64,000 nucleotides of DNA from Ophelia neglecta (taxonomy: Eukaryota): NCBI GenBank assembly GCA_965285935.1, contig OZ260664.1, positions 15,996,001 through 16,060,000 on the forward strand, read 5' to 3'. Shown here piece after piece: positions 30,701-36,700 of the stretch (position 1 is its first letter; each line of letters begins with the position of its first letter). The position numbers are program-made.

Positions 30701-33700
30701 TCACAGAACTTAGCTCTGTTGCCAGAAGCTGATAAGGTAAACAACAAGATCCTGTGACTAATTGGCCCTGAAAAAATCTAGAGCAGCACATGCAGTCTCT
30801 TTGTGTGCAACCAGCACTGTCCATATCATACTCACAGAGTGTCAACTTGATCAGAGGATAATGACTTTTACCTAAAGGTCAGGCCAGGTTCTGTAAAGGC
30901 CACAGCGTATATAATAACCTTTATGTTGTAAATTAGTTCGCCGAACGCTGGAGGAAGGACAACAAATGTCTATATACAGACACGGTTGACTTCAGTCGCG
31001 CTTTCGACCGAGTGGTGGGGGAGAATGTTTGGCAGAAAATGATAGCTGCCGGCATAAGAGGAAAATCATTAAGGTGTTTCAGAGCATTACAGTTAAATCA
31101 ATCGTGCGCAATCACTTAAGGGCCAGATGGGACGAATTCGCATGTATGGTAGGAGCCATGCATATATGGAGAATGCTTTAGTCCAATAATCTTCGCATTC
31201 TTAATAAACGATTTAGAAGAACACTTGATCGCTCATGCCACCATATACTCCACCATATGTCTCTACGCGGACTACTGTGTACTGTTCTCGGAAACTACTC
31301 AGGGTCTCCAACACGCCCTAAGCGCGCAAGGACTACTGCGATCGCTGGTCATTGGTTGTCAATAAAAGTAAAACTAAGATCTGTGTCTTCAAAGACCCGT
31401 CCACTGAGGCACAGACGACCTCCACGTATTCCGGAGAGCGTATTGAAGTGGTCAACCACTTCCTGTACCTAGGTCTAACTCTGACTAGCAAGTCTCCTGG
31501 CAAGACGCTAGGGAGAGAAATATGAAGCAATATGCATTGTCAATAATATCTATTGTATTGTAAAAAAAAGTAATGTAGGCATAGAGATTGTTTAACATAT
31601 ACTCTTTAACATTAGGAGCAAGCTTATGGTGAGTTATCGATCAGTTCTACTCGCCGCTCGACGACTAGTAAATGATCTCCGACATTTGGTGTCTCGTTCA
31701 TTAATATGAAGAGTGTTATTGCCTGCCTCAGATGGGAGCGACACTCCAAATTTGTCATAACTTAGACGCCGTTTCCAGAACAATACCGCAAAGGTTTCAT
31801 TTTGGAAATGATATTAAAGTATACTAGCGGTCCCCGTATTAACAACGGCATTTAGGGACCTTGCTCGGACTTTGTTCTGGCTATGTTAATCGCAGTGTTT
31901 TCCGAGACTTGCAAAATTTTGCGTACTGATCAGTGCTGAATTTATGTAAATATATATAGCTCGCTGCCCTTCGCACAGGGTGCCAAGGTAGTGGTTTCGT
32001 CATTCAGATCATAGGTCACGCGTCATAGGTCACACAGCGGCTATACTACTGATCGGAAGGATTTGACGTAGGAAAATAACCCCTAATCCAATGATTGCAT
32101 CCGCCAGGTAAAACACAAAACCGGCTGCAAACCCACCCAAAAGTTAAGGGGTACACCAAGCAGCCATATATTTGAAAGCCTTTCAGGAGTCGGCCGTATT
32201 TCGGGAGGAAACGAAATCGGCTTATAGGAATAATATTAATATATAGATATTTCTGGGAAATTTTCTTTGAGATAGGCGGCGCCACGCTAGTGCCCATACT
32301 ACTCCCCCCCCCCGCAGCAATATAATGACGAAAGCTCGCTAACAATATTGCGCAAAATGTATGGAGCTTCGGGGCTGAAATTGACAGGGAGGAGGTTTTT
32401 TATGCAGAGGCATAAAAAGGTTAACTATTGTTTGCTTTTCGCCAGTTCAGATTATATCCAGTGTTTTAAGGAAACAAATTTTTTATTATACTATCCCGTT
32501 TAATTGGTTGGGGGCTTGCGTTTCTGAAAGCTTTGTTAATTATTATGGTAACCTATGTGTATTTCAGGGCTAGGTCAGACGAACAAAGATTGATCACCGA
32601 CTTACTGAGATTTAATGTAAACCACACGCCGGCCCGTCCGCTTGTCAACTCATCAACAGCGGTGAATGTCACAATGGGCATCACCATTACCCAAATCATA
32701 AAGTTGAACGAGAAAGAGGGCACACTCACTATGCAAATGTGGACATATCTTGTAAGCATAAACAGAGAATTACATTATGCTTAAATCCATCTGATTATTA
32801 ATATATGAAATACGAAAATCTCCCCTTAGAATATATTTACCTTTTTTTTTCATAAAACAGCGTTATGATAAGAAATCGGCAGTCTGGGAAAAAAATTCAG
32901 CAGAAATTAAATTTATCGATGATGGAAATTTTAAAAATAAACGTGTGTCCACCAGGACAACTTTAATAGACACTTTCTATTATCAGGGGTGGTACGACGA
33001 TTTTCTAGAATTCGATGAAAATGAGTACGGGGGACTTACCTCAGTGAACTTGTCCCCGAAACAAGTGTGGATTCCGGATATAATGTTGTTTGGCTGGTAA
33101 ATAGTGATTTGATTACAAGGTTATAACAACAGTGTCTAAAATAAAAGCACAGAGTACATGAATAAGTTAAACAATCCACTGAAAGTATCACTTAATTAAT
33201 TCTATTTTTAAGGGCATGTATGTATAATATACGTATATAAGAAGCCCTGCAGAGTGTACACACTGACACTTGCATTCTTAAGGCGTGCCCACTTCAAGCC
33301 TTGGCGCCCGCCTCCGTTGCACCAGAAGAAGTGTCCTTATTGTCTATAATACGTACAGGCGCTCGACACGGCACCAACGAAGTCTTATGCGGCAGACCAT
33401 TCTCTGCTTTTTGGCTCACTTACTGTTTGTTCTTACCGACCCTGTCCATCCTGCCATCTTTTTTTTTTCTATCTGTGCTCTGTTCTCTCCCGTCTGTGCT
33501 CTATCCTTCTCATTAATGTCCTCTGTTGCCTTTTCCTCCTGCTCCCTTTACTTACCGTCTGTTGCTTTCCTCTCGTATTCTACTATAATTTTCCCTACTT
33601 TTTTCTCTTTTCATTCGGACCCCTTGTATTATTCATCAATCCTCTTATTTAACTGCAGGTCTGTTTCCCTGTATTTTCTCGGCCGTCTTTATATAATGCT

Positions 33701-36700
33701 TCCGTGCGACGGAAAAAAGAGGCCTTTGTATTCCACGCTGCGCTGGGCTGTCGGGAGGAAGGTTCTGGAAACATCGATGCATCGAGAACTTTCCGCCACA
33801 CAAGCCTGCTCGTTAGAAAAAACTGCAGATTGAATGTTCATTTGTGACCTTATTAAGAGTCTCTTTGTATTTGGAATGGTTAGACCACAGCATTATAAGG
33901 GTATATATGCCCGGGAATTTGCTCGGGGTAGAGGCGGAATCAGATGAATATACCACTGTGCAGTAACATACCTTAGTACACAAATAAAACGCAGTGACTT
34001 CAGTAAAGCCTCCATTTCTGTAAGCCTCAGTGTTTTATGGCTATTTACTGCGTTTTACCAAACATGGAAATGGGTTCTTTAATGTACATCACAATATTTA
34101 TCAACTTCTGGAAGACTTTTGCCCTATGTAAATATAGAAAGTAAATTTGTACAACGAATCCTACGTTTGAGCTACCTCGCGGTTTACCATTGCACGGCCT
34201 AGTGCTTCTTGTGTTTCTAAAGAATATCATACAACTTTTTCCTAGTACCAGCCAAGACTGCTCAGTGTCGCAATCGGACAGCCGACTGCTGAATGTGGAT
34301 TCCACAGGCTTTGTTAATTGGGCGCCTTCTGCTATCTACACTAGTTCTTGCCGCATTGAAGTTGATAATTTCCCTTTCGACACTCAAACGTGTTTTTTGA
34401 AGTTTGGTTCTTGGGCGTATTCGGCTGCACAGTTACAATTGGTACGTAAAACAAAACTAGAACACCTTCATTAAAATCACCCTCTTATTCCTCAAACAGT
34501 GGAACTGCTCTTAGACACCATTGAAATAAATCAACACAATTCGCAGATAATGGGTTGATAGATGTGTGTCAAGTTAAAGGTACGCAATCTTTAGTTTTCT
34601 GGAATGTGCTTTTTTTGCATACTACTTTTTTCCAGCTATATGTGAAGCTAACCCGCTTTAAACAAATTCATGGCTAAATTAATGGTTCTTCAACCTATTT
34701 ACTATATCAATAGACTACTTACAAAGTACACTCGTTGGGGCCCATCCTGGATATTTATGCAGTCTATCGTTTCTGATTGGTGAATCCTAGCCAGGCATGT
34801 GAGAATTTGACAAAGACAATCAGGTTTTGCAAGTTCCAAGTAGTGTGCACTGGTGTATTCCGCTTTTAGCATATTTGAGTGCGTACGGTGTCGTATTTTG
34901 CTAGATACAAGTTGCCGAGTGACGTGTGTAGTGTTGCAGTATGGCGGCCTTAACAAATAAACTTCGGGCAGGACACGAATTCACAGCTATTACTATTTCA
35001 TGTCATAGATTATGATTGCAGTAGACCTATATATAAAATGCAGTCCATATTTTTGGGCAAACTGCATATTGAGTACCTTTAAATGTCAGTTTGTATTTTA
35101 CGGTTTCTTACCCAAAACACATAAGTTATACAGCTGCCATCAAAATAAACGCTGGTTGTTTACCTAAAGATGATCTTCTTTGAAGGAAACACACAACACT
35201 TAATATTGTTTGACGAAACCGAAGCATGTTCAAGTGAAAATGACCTTGCTCTTTCTTAAAGCACGTGGCAAATGACGAACAATATTCAAATGGGGTTGAT
35301 CTAAGCGAATACATCTCAAGTATTGAATGGGAACTAAGAAATGTGACATCAAGAAAAAATAATGTAGGTGAATACGATCTTAATATGTAAAATGTCATCG
35401 TGTGTCATTGAAATTGTCATGATTAATTCTATAATACTACTGTACGACCATTACTGGGAGTCATTTTCCCCCTTTGTTTTATAGTAGATAAGGGTCTGTC
35501 GGCAGGCAACTATTAATCGAAAATTCTTTACAAATACTACCATGTTAAGTAAGTTGTTCACTGATAAAAAAAACAATTTCAGGTCATTCACACATGCTGT
35601 CCTGAAGGTTTTGATGATGTAACGATTAAACTCACTCTGAAGAGAAAGCCGGGTTTCTATGCTTACGTCTTGCTGTTGCCCTCCGTCGTTCTGTCTTCTA
35701 TGGTTTTATTCCTGTATTGGATTCCACCAGGAAGACCGGATAGGACAACTGTGGGTAAGATGCTGTACATAGAATAATATATATGTTTGCTTCAACTCAG
35801 ACGGTTGGAGAAACTCTCGTAGGCGAGATGCTTTATATCGACGAGTACAGCCTGTAAATTTGACTTGGTCCATCGCACTCCATCCAGGCAACTATTTTTA
35901 CAGTGCTGATAGGCCTCTGCCGTGATTCCAGGAGGGAGTACCTACACGGAGTTTGACCTATTGGCGAGTAGCGAGTTAAAGTAACAAGTTAGATTAGCAT
36001 TTGTCGAGTAGACAATATGCGAGTTACGAAAAATATAATACAGTAGTGGTGTGCACCGATTTGGATGGGTGTGTGTTTTTGGGAGGGGGGGGGGGGGGGG
36101 CGGGGTCGCTGGCCAAAGAGACCTCTGTTATACCATATATTATTGAGGTCAACTTTATCTAGAAATTAAACCTTAAAACTGGTGCTTAAATTCAATGGAT
36201 ACGGTCTTTTAATAAATAATGACAAATTCAAGTAACGTGATACTATGATGTGGTCAGTAATTAATAAGGACAATTTATCAAGCAAAGTGAAACAATGTAT
36301 TGATAAAACTGTTAAAAAAAATAATATAATAATATAATATGAGAAGCCGTGAGAGGGTGTCACCTACCCTGAAACAAGAAACAGTAGCCAGTGGAGCAAG
36401 TGAAGACAAGAAGTCCATAGAATAGTTAGTAAATAATACAGGATATCCCCAGAGGCTAAATTATTCCAAGTAAGTGGAAAGCATAGCAGTAGGGGTTCAT
36501 TGGGATACTGTCCCAATATACCACCAATATGCCACAATAAGTGTGTCCCAATGCTTTGTGAGTTTTTGTGTAAGTAGGTTAACGACACTTTAGACAATGA
36601 AGGAATCTTTTCCCCTACTCAATTTGCTATATGATAATGCTAATGTTCTAACAGACCGAAATTCTGCACTTATTCGCCTTTGAGGGTGTTTAACTAATAT

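What the first reader, a model, noticed from the sequence alone, without database searches (positions are those of the whole stretch)
32987..35620. Alpha-type nAChR-like subunit with a rewired ligand pocket: probably not gated by acetylcholine
Seen, with Torpedo alpha numbering by eye: loop A WIPDIMLFG (Y93->F), loop B W149 kept, loop C HTCCPEGF (Y190->H, vicinal CC kept, Y198->F), loop D Trp kept. An extra C-TSQD-C pair is created across the exon junction right after loop A. Known: Y93, Y190 and Y198 are central to ACh binding, and nAChR-derived receptors have been repurposed for choline/betaine (nematode DEG-3 family) and contact chemosensation (cephalopod chemotactile receptors). Inference: an orphan ligand or chemosensory receptor with a possible extra disulfide.
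Basis: partly seen in the sequence, partly recalled or inferred. Interest (0 to 1): 0.72.

Follow-up and report, generated by a model that had tools for sequence, protein, structure and literature searches.

The report
Divergent invertebrate nicotinic-type receptor subunit gene
This is an intact nine-exon gene for an unusual nicotinic-receptor-like channel subunit of an invertebrate, whose ligand pocket has drifted away from that of its own closest relatives; such divergent subunits are common in worms and molluscs, so it is a fair candidate for testing but not a new kind of thing.

Summary
HMMER alignments to solved receptors show Phe at loop A, Trp at loop B, His-x-Cys-Cys-(3)-Phe in loop C and Trp at loop D. 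A Cys codon split by intron 3 creates a C-x4-C pair. The finding covers part of a complete gene, 30064-38464 on the + strand: 9 exons, 1308 nt, all introns GT-AG.

Its nearest named relatives are three uncharacterised annelid proteins. They share a PPxRPDR motif before M2 and a TM2 with Ser at the normally Leu 9' gate position. These relatives keep Tyr at loops A and C. So the F/H/F set, a loop C one residue shorter and the Cys pair are peculiar to this gene.

Whether it responds to acetylcholine cannot be read from sequence. The Alpo4 paper lists an aromatic residue at all five pocket positions, yet Alpo4 is an orphan; the betaine receptor ACR-23 keeps all the tyrosines. It is not a cephalopod chemotactile receptor by gene structure: it has 8 introns.

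Divergent alpha-type subunits with incomplete binding residues are well documented in lophotrochozoans (20 of 33 in oyster). Verdict: a new member of a known kind, of moderate interest. The exons were never joined, so there was no full-length search, fold, pentamer model or full-length tree.

The parts
30064..30167 (+). Exon 1 (inferred): ATG, hydrophobic signal-peptide-like stretch, GT donor, ends in phase 2
   Evidence: Read. The phase fits exon 2 and the donor context is ATGG|gtaagt. No Pfam hit and no significant relative, so this is by eye only.
32568..32751 (+). Exon 2: N-terminal helix and beta1-beta2 of the ligand-binding domain, with the loop D Trp
   Evidence: Pfam PF02931 E 1.9e-07, profile 1-53. 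Aligns to Torpedo delta 3-57 with Trp on W57.
32987..33096 (+). Exon 3: loop A (W-I-P-D-I-M-L-F-G). The last two bases, TG, begin a split Cys codon.
   Evidence: Pfam PF02931 E 9.1e-09, profile 57-90. Alignment to alpha9 and beta3. Splice context.
34246..34441 (+). Exon 4: completes the Cys, then T-S-Q-D-C; loop E region; Cys-loop (C-x13-C); Lys and loop B Trp
   Evidence: Pfam PF02931 E 2.4e-19, profile 98-156. Best PDB match is alpha2, E 1.3e-14.
35262..35363 (+). Exon 5: loop F / beta8-beta9 region
   Evidence: Phase 0 on both sides, AG/GT. Weak match to P0156 213-234, E 0.004. Tiles at P0156 207-235. No Pfam hit alone.
35583..35754 (+). Exon 6: loop C (H-T-C-C-P-E-G-F-D-D), TM1, and the pre-M2 motif P-P-G-R-P-D-R
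   Evidence: Best PDB match is alpha7, E 1.1e-06, with a gapless loop C alignment. TM1-TM3 profile rank 1 of 3475 ORF pieces, 39.9 bits. 54-56% identical to the annelid proteins.
36712..36792 (+). Exon 7: TM2 (pore helix) with Ser at 6', 9' and 10' and Leu at 13' and 16', plus the start of the M2-M3 loop
   Evidence: Phase 1 in and out, strong splice sites. Hits TM2 of P0156, P0158 and P0154 at E 4.8e-06 to 3.2e-05, directly after the exon 6 match. The generic profile gives only 6.7 bits. No PDB hit.
37900..38009 (+). Exon 8: TM3 and the start of the intracellular loop
   Evidence: TM1-TM3 profile rank 2 of 3475 ORF pieces, 12.4 bits, i-E 0.023, profile 74-117. The best weak BLAST hits all fall on TM3 of nAChR subunits. 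No PDB hit at E<=10.
38216..38464 (+). Exon 9: short intracellular loop, TM4, stop TGA at 38462-38464
   Evidence: Phase 0 acceptor; the ORF opens at the acceptor and ends in a stop. The top 3 weak BLAST hits fall on C-terminal TM4 segments, E 0.029-0.18. Tiles at P0156 361-443. A TM4 profile gave no support and there was no PDB hit. This is the least certain exon.

Best explanation
SHOWN.
- Its nearest named relatives are uncharacterised annelid proteins.
- It shares with them a proline-bearing pre-M2 motif (PPxRPDR: Pro at -2', Asp at -1', Arg at 0') and a TM2 with Ser instead of Leu at the 9' gate position.
- Relative to that group it is a fast-diverged copy. Three of its five aromatic-box residues have changed (loop A Tyr to Phe, loop C Tyr to His and Tyr to Phe), loop C is one residue shorter, and a C-x4-C pair has appeared just after loop A.

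INFERRED.
- The product assembles into a pentamer, alone or more likely with other subunits.
- The pore is probably cation-permeable because of the -1' Asp ring, and its gate is unusually polar.
- The principal face still offers the loop B Trp for a cation-pi contact but lacks the Tyr hydroxyls. It would therefore bind acetylcholine-like quaternary amines weakly, bind a related small amine instead, or act as an accessory subunit that does not bind agonist.
- The His could add sensitivity to pH or metals.
- The agonist cannot be named from sequence.
For: Gene model:
- All 8 introns are GT-AG with pyrimidine-rich acceptors, the phases fit, and the total is 1308 nt.
- Each exon tiles consecutively on the 443-aa annelid protein P0156: 44-106, 106-141, 141-204, 207-235, 236-293, 295-320, 323-360, 361-443.

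Family:
- PF02931 matches E2, E3 and E4 collinearly.
- The best solved matches are nAChR alpha and delta subunits.
- The Cys-loop, vicinal Cys-Cys, loop B Trp, loop D Trp and the Lys and Asp partners are all kept.

Subgroup:
- Summed per-exon bit scores rank P0156 (271), P0154 (245) and P0158 (242) first of 267 proteins.
- E7 matches their TM2 at E 4.8e-06 to 3.2e-05.
- 17 of 267 proteins carry PPxRPDR.
- In the E6-only tree the gene sits inside a 19-row set holding all 17 of them (SH-aLRT 95).
- The HMMER alignment of P0156 to human alpha4 puts P-D-R on G-E-K and Ser on the 9' Leu. A profile alignment of our exon 7 does the same.

Peculiarity of the pocket:
- In the subgroup, TyrC1 is Tyr in 15 of 15, TyrC2 is Tyr in 14 of 15 and loop A is Tyr in 3 of 4.
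- No Cys follows loop A in 0 of 41 motif instances.

Divergence:
- Identity to the annelid proteins is 31-39% in E2 and E3 and 54-56% in E6. The annelids share 61-75% and 79-86% with each other on the same segments.

Accessory-subunit precedent: human beta3 has Phe at loop A.
Against: Weak support for parts of the model:
- No transcript evidence. Exon 1 is by eye only.
- Exon 9 is supported only by splice phase, weak C-terminal BLAST hits and tiling. A TM4 profile built from 13 segments did not recover it among its top 8.
- PDB searches with E7, E8 and E9 found no receptor.
- Pfam's transmembrane family matched none of the 9 exon pieces.

Subgroup placement is not independently resolved:
- The starred E6 set includes the motif's own columns.
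- E6 without those columns, and E4 alone, give no supported placement. In the E4 tree the nearest rows are mostly PPxSPAK proteins.
- Loop C has the length of that PPxSPAK group, not of the PPxRPDR group.

Other limits:
- The fast divergence could equally mean relaxed constraint.
- Ion selectivity with Pro at -2' next to Asp at -1' is ambiguous. P-A-R is the anion signature (PMC4801368, passages).
- The organism is not identified.
Confidence: 0.6

Rival explanations
1. Orphan or chemosensory receptor. The changed pocket and the possible extra disulfide have retuned the subunit to a non-cholinergic, perhaps environmental, ligand, as in cephalopod chemotactile receptors.
For: - The pocket changes are specific to this gene within its subgroup.
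- The Cys pair is unique among 41 loop-A instances.
- The ligand-binding exons have diverged most.
- Lophotrochozoan nAChR-like orphans and chemotactile receptors exist (PMC10338036 passages; PMC13174522 section 3.4).
Against: - The gene has 8 introns, whereas chemotactile receptors are described as intronless (PMC13174522 section 3.4.4).
- All five box positions stay aromatic or imidazole, and the Trp for the cation-pi contact is kept. The pocket still looks built for an amine.
- No chain named chemotactile appears in the PDB lists shown (four of these five lists were cut to the best 60, only one search was shown whole).
- There are no expression data.
Confidence: 0.2
2. Still an acetylcholine (or choline) receptor subunit. 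The Phe/His/Phe set lowers potency but does not abolish gating, and the polar 9' gate of this subgroup compensates by lowering the gating barrier.
For: - Phe keeps the aromatic character and removes only H-bonds (PMC4621750 passages).
- The loop B and loop D Trp, the vicinal Cys pair and the Lys and Asp partners are kept.
- 9' Ser is conserved in the subgroup.
- Polar 9' substitutions are known to raise agonist sensitivity (recalled, not from a call).
Against: - In muscle receptors, Y190F required background mutations that raise the unliganded gating constant E0 about 1e5-fold, against 81-fold for Y198F (PMC4621750 passages). This suggests the TyrC1 hydroxyl matters a great deal, and here that position is His.
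- The subgroup itself is uncharacterised.
- Annelid nAChR-like subunits carrying the vicinal Cys pair (Alpo2) gave no response to any tested compound (PMC4801368 passages).
Confidence: 0.25
3. A decaying or non-functional copy. The pocket changes and the fast divergence reflect relaxed constraint on a redundant paralogue in a large gene family.
For: - Identity to its nearest relatives is about half of what they share among themselves.
- It has a long terminal branch in the single-exon trees.
- Lophotrochozoan families hold up to 217 nAChR genes, many with odd domain structures (PMC6896357 Results).
Against: - All 9 exons are open, all 16 splice sites are canonical, and there is no frameshift or internal stop over 1308 nt.
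- Structural invariants are kept: both Cys-loop cysteines, the vicinal pair, the Trp residues, the Lys/Asp pair and the TM1 proline.
Confidence: 0.12

Closest known systems
Uncharacterised annelid nAChR-like proteins: DgyrCDS12454 (Dimorphilus gyrociliatus, P0156), LSH36_1087g00002 (Paralvinella palmiformis, P0158), CAPTEDRAFT_52979 (Capitella teleta, P0154)
   Same: - Alpha-type loop C.
- The PPxRPDR pre-M2 motif.
- TM2 beginning G-M-S with Ser at 9' and 10'.
- Similar length (430-443 aa against 435).
- Every exon tiles on them in order.
   Different: - They keep Tyr at loop A and at both loop C positions.
- Their loop C is one residue longer.
- They have no Cys pair after loop A.
- They have Gln, not Glu, at 20'.
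- Identity to our gene is only 31-56% per exon (about 14-29% in the two most divergent, E8 and E9), against 58-100% among themselves for E2-E4 and E6-E8.
- None has a known function.
Vertebrate neuronal nAChR alpha subunits (alpha7, alpha4, alpha2, alpha3) and Torpedo/muscle subunits
   Same: - Ligand-binding-domain fold signature, Cys-loop and vicinal Cys-Cys.
- Loop B and loop D Trp.
- Loop C has the length of alpha7.
   Different: - No single orthologue: the best solved match changes with the exon (alpha2 for E4, alpha7 for E6, alpha9 for E3, delta for E2).
- F/H/F replaces Y/Y/Y.
- P-D-R replaces G-E-K before M2.
- Ser replaces Leu at 9'.
- The intracellular loop is very short.
Alpo4 and Alpo2, orphan nAChR-like receptors of Alvinella pompejana
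   Same: - Lophotrochozoan nAChR-like subunits with aromatic pocket residues. Alpo4 has Phe in loop A.
- No agonist found despite screening (PMC10338036 and PMC4801368, passages).
- Alpo4 (8bx5) is hit by E2 at E 1.1e-05 and by P0156 at E 1.5e-60.
   Different: - Alpo4 lacks the vicinal Cys pair, which our gene has.
- Alpo2 has it, but I held no Alpo2 sequence, so kinship was not tested.
Cephalopod chemotactile receptors (CRs)
   Same: nAChR-derived, with changed acetylcholine-contact residues (PMC13174522 section 3.4.4; PMC10338036 passages).
   Different: - CRs are described as intronless and form a mainly cephalopod clade. This gene has 8 introns.
- No chain named chemotactile appeared in the PDB lists shown.
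- I held no CR sequence, so a direct comparison was not made.
Nematode DEG-3 group (DEG-3/DES-2, ACR-23 betaine receptor)
   Different: - ACR-23 keeps the full Tyr/Trp/Tyr/Tyr/Trp box (PMC11377560 passages), so its retuning did not involve the changes seen here.
- The group is described as nematode-specific.
- DES-2 matches E6 only at E 0.0013, against 1.1e-06 for alpha7.
Accessory vertebrate subunits such as beta3
   Same: Phe at the loop A position (W-L-P-D-I-V-L-F in beta3). This is a subunit that sits in pentamers without forming an agonist site (function recalled).
   Different: beta3 lacks the vicinal Cys pair (recalled). There is no specific kinship.

Membership tests
Cys-loop (pentameric ligand-gated) receptor superfamily | [quoted passage not shown] | tested here: met
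   PF02931 matches E2, E3 and E4 above the cut-off (31.2, 35.5 and 70.1 bits against 26), collinear on profile positions 1-156.
Cys-loop (pentameric ligand-gated) receptor superfamily | Two cysteines 13 residues apart (the Cys-loop) | tested here: met
   C-x13-C in exon 4. Both Cys align to the invariant Cys of 150/150 and 149/149 relatives.
Cys-loop (pentameric ligand-gated) receptor superfamily | Four transmembrane helices after the ligand-binding domain | tested here: inconclusive
   - TM1: significant (profile 39.9 bits).
- TM2: matches the annelid TM2 (E about 1e-05).
- TM3: i-E 0.023.
- TM4: only weak positional hits, and a TM4 profile failed.
- PF02932 matched no single exon.
The joined protein was not tested.
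nAChR alpha-type subunit | Vicinal Cys-Cys at the tip of loop C | tested here: met
   C-C aligns to the C-C of alpha7.
Canonical acetylcholine-binding principal/complementary face | Aromatic box TyrA, TrpB, TyrC1, TyrC2, TrpD | tested here: not met
   2 of 5 are identical (TrpB, TrpD). The others are Phe, His and Phe.
Acetylcholine-gated channel (function) | Current evoked by acetylcholine | not testable with these tools
   Needs expression and electrophysiology.
PPxRPDR subgroup (annelid proteins P0154, P0156, P0158 and 14 unnamed) | Pre-M2 motif PPxRPDR, and a TM2 starting G-M-S with Ser at 9' | tested here: met
   The motif is present in exon 6. Exon 7 is 46-54% identical to their TM2, E 4.8e-06 to 3.2e-05.
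PPxRPDR subgroup | Groups with them in a tree built on columns other than the motif | tested here: inconclusive
   - E6-only tree: inside a starred set (95) with all 17, but the motif columns are included.
- E6 minus the motif: the nearest rows are all from the subgroup, but no supported branch.
- E4-only: unresolved, with the nearest rows mostly PPxSPAK.
- A full-length tree was not made, because the exons were not joined.
PPxRPDR subgroup | Loop C form Y-P-C-C-x-x-E-P-Y-P-D (4 residues between CC and Tyr) | tested here: not met
   Ours has 3 residues between CC and Phe, as in alpha7 and the PPxSPAK set.
Cephalopod chemotactile receptors | Intronless gene | tested here: not met
   8 introns. 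The intronless character is taken from PMC13174522 section 3.4.4.
Cephalopod chemotactile receptors | Membership of the CR clade | not tested
   No CR sequence was in hand. No chain named chemotactile appeared in the PDB lists shown, four of which were cut to 60 rows.
Nematode DEG-3 group | Closer to DEG-3/DES-2/ACR-23 than to other nAChRs | tested here: not met
   - E6: DES-2 E 0.0013 against alpha7 1.1e-06.
- E3: DEG-3 E 0.0071 against alpha9 9.9e-05.
- E2: DES-2 E 0.072, ACR-23 E 0.61.
Alpo4-like orphans | Loss of the loop C vicinal Cys pair | tested here: not met
   Our gene keeps C-C. The Alpo4 feature is from PMC10338036 passages.

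The most novel reading that the evidence does not exclude
The PPxRPDR proteins form a conserved, wholly uncharacterised channel type within the nicotinic family. It has a proline/aspartate selectivity filter and a polar (Ser) 9' gate, a position that is Leu in the solved receptor aligned here (human alpha4) and in the consensus of the relatives profiled. This gene is a derivative of that type whose agonist site has been retuned (His and two Phe for three Tyr, a shorter loop C, a new disulfide-capable Cys pair) to a ligand other than acetylcholine, or to protons or metals acting through the His.
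Probability: 0.25. Interest if true: 0.6.

Novelty: new member of a known kind. Interest (0 to 1): 0.36.

Why it matters
Lophotrochozoans carry tens to hundreds of nicotinic-like genes, and the ligands of most are unknown.

This gene offers a clean natural experiment. Its closest relatives keep the textbook tyrosines, whereas this copy has swapped three of them and gained a Cys pair. Back-mutation and comparison with an annelid relative could show what those residues do in this background.

The subgroup's Ser at the 9' gate and its Pro-Asp-Arg filter would also interest channel biophysicists, if the channels prove functional.

It does not open a new category. Divergent alpha-type subunits with incomplete binding residues are already documented:
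- 20 of 33 alpha-type subunits in oyster (PMC6896357).

Tried and rejected
Searches and tests that gave nothing:
- Word-index protein search with E4 and with E6 against longer proteins: 10 and 11 candidates, none significant. The gene's own protein was therefore not found in that collection.
- Whole-library HMMER search with E4: 4116 hits, best single-stretch identity 67%, mostly short fragments, no near-identical protein.
- The listing of cluster members for names of ten relatives: not available.
- ESM Atlas with E6: only generic channel clusters, recognition below the stated threshold.
- PDB searches with E7, E8 and E9: no receptor hit.
- tblastn of 23 long relatives against the window: TM1 only, and no second receptor gene anywhere in the 64 kb.
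- TM4 profile from 13 segments: did not recover exon 9 or any other candidate.
- Rfam: no family in the window. Tandem repeats: none in 29-40 kb.
- van Nierop 2005 on anion-selective molluscan subunits is not held. What I say of it is recalled, or taken from the reference list seen.

Readings considered and rejected:
- Cephalopod chemotactile receptor (8 introns).
- DEG-3 group member (weaker similarity; the group is nematode-specific).
- Alpo4-like (our gene has the Cys pair).
- Human sequence. The nearest named relatives are annelid, and the matches to human receptor chains are partial and change subunit from exon to exon (alpha2 for E4, alpha7 for E6, alpha9 for E3; one search shows the E4 alignment). 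I do not take the contig for human.

Not done:
- The exons were not joined. So there was no full-length search, no structure prediction, no pentamer or pocket model, no full-length phylogeny and no complex prediction.
- Genome contigs (prokaryotes only) and the phage, plasmid and E. coli collections were not used, as irrelevant.
- Supplementary files of the papers (alignments of binding residues and TM2 motifs in PMC6896357 and PMC13174522) could not be seen. They may already show this subgroup.
- I made no literature search for the PPxRPDR motif or for natural 9' Ser, so I make no claim that these are unpublished.

Full report
**What is there.**

The window has no N and a G+C content of about 33-46%.

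I extended them to a full model on the + strand:
- E1 30064-30167
- E2 32568-32751
- E3 32987-33096
- E4 34246-34441
- E5 35262-35363
- E6 35583-35754
- E7 36712-36792
- E8 37900-38009
- E9 38216-38464

All eight introns are GT-AG with pyrimidine-rich acceptors, the phases fit, and the coding length is 1308 nt, or 436 codons with the stop.

**Checking the observation.**

Pfam's ligand-binding-domain family matches E2, E3 and E4 above its cut-off and in collinear order.

HMMER alignments to solved receptors fix the key residues:

| Position | This gene | Aligned to |
|---|---|---|
| Loop A | Phe | Tyr of alpha9 (human beta3 also has Phe) |
| Loop B | Trp, with the preceding Lys | alpha2, alpha3, alpha4 |
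| Loop C | H-T-C-C-P-E-G-F-D-D | alpha7 Y-E-C-C-K-E-P-Y-P-D, gapless |
| Loop D | Trp | W57 of Torpedo delta |

The first Cys of the C-T-S-Q-D-C pair is a codon split by intron 3 (TG|T). A second AG six bases on would still give a Cys pair. The finding's coordinates cover only E3 to the start of E6.

**The rest of the gene.**

The transmembrane exons are much more divergent:
- Alone, none of them matches Pfam's membrane family.
- E7, E8 and E9 find no receptor in the PDB.
- 23 long relatives find only TM1 by tblastn.

I built a TM1-TM3 profile from 25 segments of relatives and searched all 3475 ORF pieces of the window:

| ORF | Rank | Score | Profile positions |
|---|---|---|---|
| E6 | 1 | 39.9 bits | 2-49 |
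| E8 | 2 | 12.4 bits, i-E 0.023 | 74-117 |
| E7 | 5 | 6.7 bits, not significant | 42-68 |

The profile positions are collinear. A TM4 profile gave no support for E9.

The decisive support came later, when annelid relatives were found:
- E7 matches their TM2 at E 4.8e-06 to 3.2e-05, directly after the E6 match.
- The best weak hits of E8 and E9 fall on TM3 and on C-terminal TM4 segments.
- All exons tile consecutively along the 443-aa protein P0156.

E1 and E9 remain the least certain exons. There is no second receptor gene in the 64 kb.

**Relatives.**

The window's own protein was not found:
- Two word-index searches with E4 and E6 returned nothing.
- The whole-library HMMER search with E4 returned 4116 hits, none near-identical; the best single-stretch identity was 67%.

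Among the 150 hits listed, two fragments (P0024, P0027) resembled E6 at 58-61%. They showed a distinctive W-I-P-P-x-R-P-D-R-T stretch before M2.

A search with the coding part of P0024 returned 126 proteins. The top named ones are uncharacterised annelid proteins:
- Capitella teleta (P0154)
- Dimorphilus gyrociliatus (P0156, 443 aa)
- Paralvinella palmiformis (P0158, 430 aa)

By summed per-exon bit scores these three rank first of 267 proteins (271, 245, 242). The next are 226 and 219.

Seventeen of the 267 proteins carry PPxRPDR. The three with a visible TM2 have G-M-S-L-F-S-S-F-F, close to ours.

The HMMER alignment of P0156 to human alpha4 places P-D-R on G-E-K (-2' to 0') and Ser on the 9' Leu. 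The profile alignment of our E7 does the same. So the polar 9' position is a feature of the subgroup, not an accident of this gene.

**How firmly it belongs to that subgroup.**

- In an E6-only tree the gene lies inside a set of 19 rows holding all 17 PPxRPDR proteins (SH-aLRT 95). That exon contains the motif itself, however.
- With the motif columns removed, its nearest rows are still all from the subgroup, but no branch is supported.
- An E4-only tree is unresolved. Its nearest rows are mostly from a related set of 14 proteins with PPxSPAK before M2.
- Our loop C has the length of that PPxSPAK set and of alpha7, one residue shorter than in the PPxRPDR proteins.

I therefore file it with the PPxRPDR proteins on the strength of the pore region, with the caveat that it may be a separate lineage beside both sets.

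**What is peculiar to this gene.**

Within the PPxRPDR set:
- TyrC1 is Tyr in 15 of 15 visible loop C sequences.
- TyrC2 is Tyr in 14 of 15, with one Phe.
- Loop A is Tyr in 3 of 4. The fourth looks like read-through into an intron.

In the wider sample:
- Loop A is Tyr 16, Phe 9, other 16 of 41 motif instances, and none of the 41 has a Cys in the next 12 residues.
- TyrC1 is Tyr 12, His 1 of 13.

Identity to the three annelid proteins, compared with what they share among themselves on the same segments:

| Exon | This gene vs annelids | Annelids vs each other |
|---|---|---|
| E2, E3 | 31-39% | 61-75% |
| E4 | 47-52% | 67-78% |
| E6 | 54-56% | 79-86% |
| E7 | 46-54% | 96-100% |

The gene is thus a fast-diverged copy, and its changes include the very residues that contact agonist.

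**What it does.**

What is shown is a complete, uninterrupted gene with every structural hallmark of a nicotinic-family subunit. What follows is inference.

- The Asp ring at -1' argues for cation permeation. The Pro at -2' recalls the P-A-R signature of anion channels (PMC4801368, passages). So selectivity is open.
- Ser at 9' should lower the barrier to opening. This rests on recalled work with Leu 9' mutants, not on a call.
- The pocket keeps the loop B Trp, an aromatic or imidazole side chain at all five positions, and the Lys and Asp that partner TyrC1. It still looks like a site for a small amine.
- Loss of the Tyr hydroxyls should weaken acetylcholine action. In muscle receptors, Y190F required background mutations that raise the unliganded gating constant about 1e5-fold, against 81-fold for Y198F. 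Phe 'conserves the aromatic character but removes H bonds' (PMC4621750, passages).

Residue patterns predict agonists poorly:
- Alpo4's pocket is described as a group of conserved aromatic residues at all five positions (Phe in loop A), yet more than 30 compounds failed (PMC10338036, passages).
- Alpo2 has the vicinal Cys pair and also stayed silent (PMC4801368, passages).
- The betaine receptor ACR-23 keeps all five canonical residues (PMC11377560, passages).

My ranking:
- Divergent subunit with a weak or non-binding principal face, likely working in heteromers (best).
- Still cholinergic at low potency (0.25).
- Orphan or chemosensory (0.2).
- Decaying copy (0.12).

**Comparison with the known.**

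It is not a cephalopod chemotactile receptor by gene structure. Those are described as intronless (PMC13174522, section 3.4.4, read in full), and this gene has eight introns.

It is not of the nematode DEG-3 group.

It is one more example of a documented pattern:
- In oyster, 33 of 132 nAChR genes are alpha-type, and only 13 of the 33 keep the principal binding residues (PMC6896357, passage in 'Sequence diversity').

The supplements of both papers, which I could not open, may already contain this subgroup.

**Organism and limits.**

The organism is not identified. The nearest named relatives are annelid, and I do not take the contig for human.

**Verdict.**

- Observation: confirmed.
- Interpretation: partly supported.
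- Novelty: new member of a known kind.
- Interest: moderate, helped by the subgroup's unusual pore and by the clean contrast with relatives that keep the textbook pocket.

Noticed in passing
window 42636-43298 (-) and 60285-60629 (-), probably the whole stretch 42.6-64 kb (-): Pieces of an IP3-receptor/ryanodine-receptor family gene lie on the minus strand, tail to tail with the receptor gene. The RIH domain PF01365 matches at E 5.8e-07. A pore-like ORF matches Ion_trans at E 1.9e-4, below the cut-off. Other long minus-strand ORFs in 50-64 kb gave no Pfam hit.
   Followed up: partly
window about 30937-31525 (+), inside intron 1: These ORFs look by eye like a reverse-transcriptase fragment of a retroelement. 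There was no Pfam hit at E<=0.01 for the two pieces tried.
   Followed up: partly
proteins P0154, P0156, P0158 (annelids) and 14 unnamed relatives: This is a conserved subgroup of alpha-type nicotinic-like subunits with Pro-Asp-Arg before M2. In the three with a visible TM2, Ser sits at the 9' gate position. A related set of 14 proteins has Pro-Ala-Lys instead. I found no function attached to the named ones.
   Followed up: partly
relatives P0024, P0027, P0151, P0153, P0155, P0163 and others: Many unnamed fragments of the subgroup break off into non-coding read-through at the same two points: just before the A-D after loop A, and just after the L-G before TM2. These match our intron 3 and intron 6 positions and suggest shared intron positions.
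   Followed up: no
window 5032-5421 (-): A 129-aa open frame made of imperfect Pro/His/Trp-rich repeats. Not examined further.
   Followed up: no
window 38216-38330 (+), exon 9: The intracellular loop is very short, with about 50 residues between TM3 and TM4, and it carries a C-R-C-C cluster. Its meaning is unknown.
   Followed up: no
window about 36086-36101 and 32300-32310: Homopolymer G and C runs lie in introns. No tandem repeat was found in 29-40 kb and no Rfam family in the window.
   Followed up: yes
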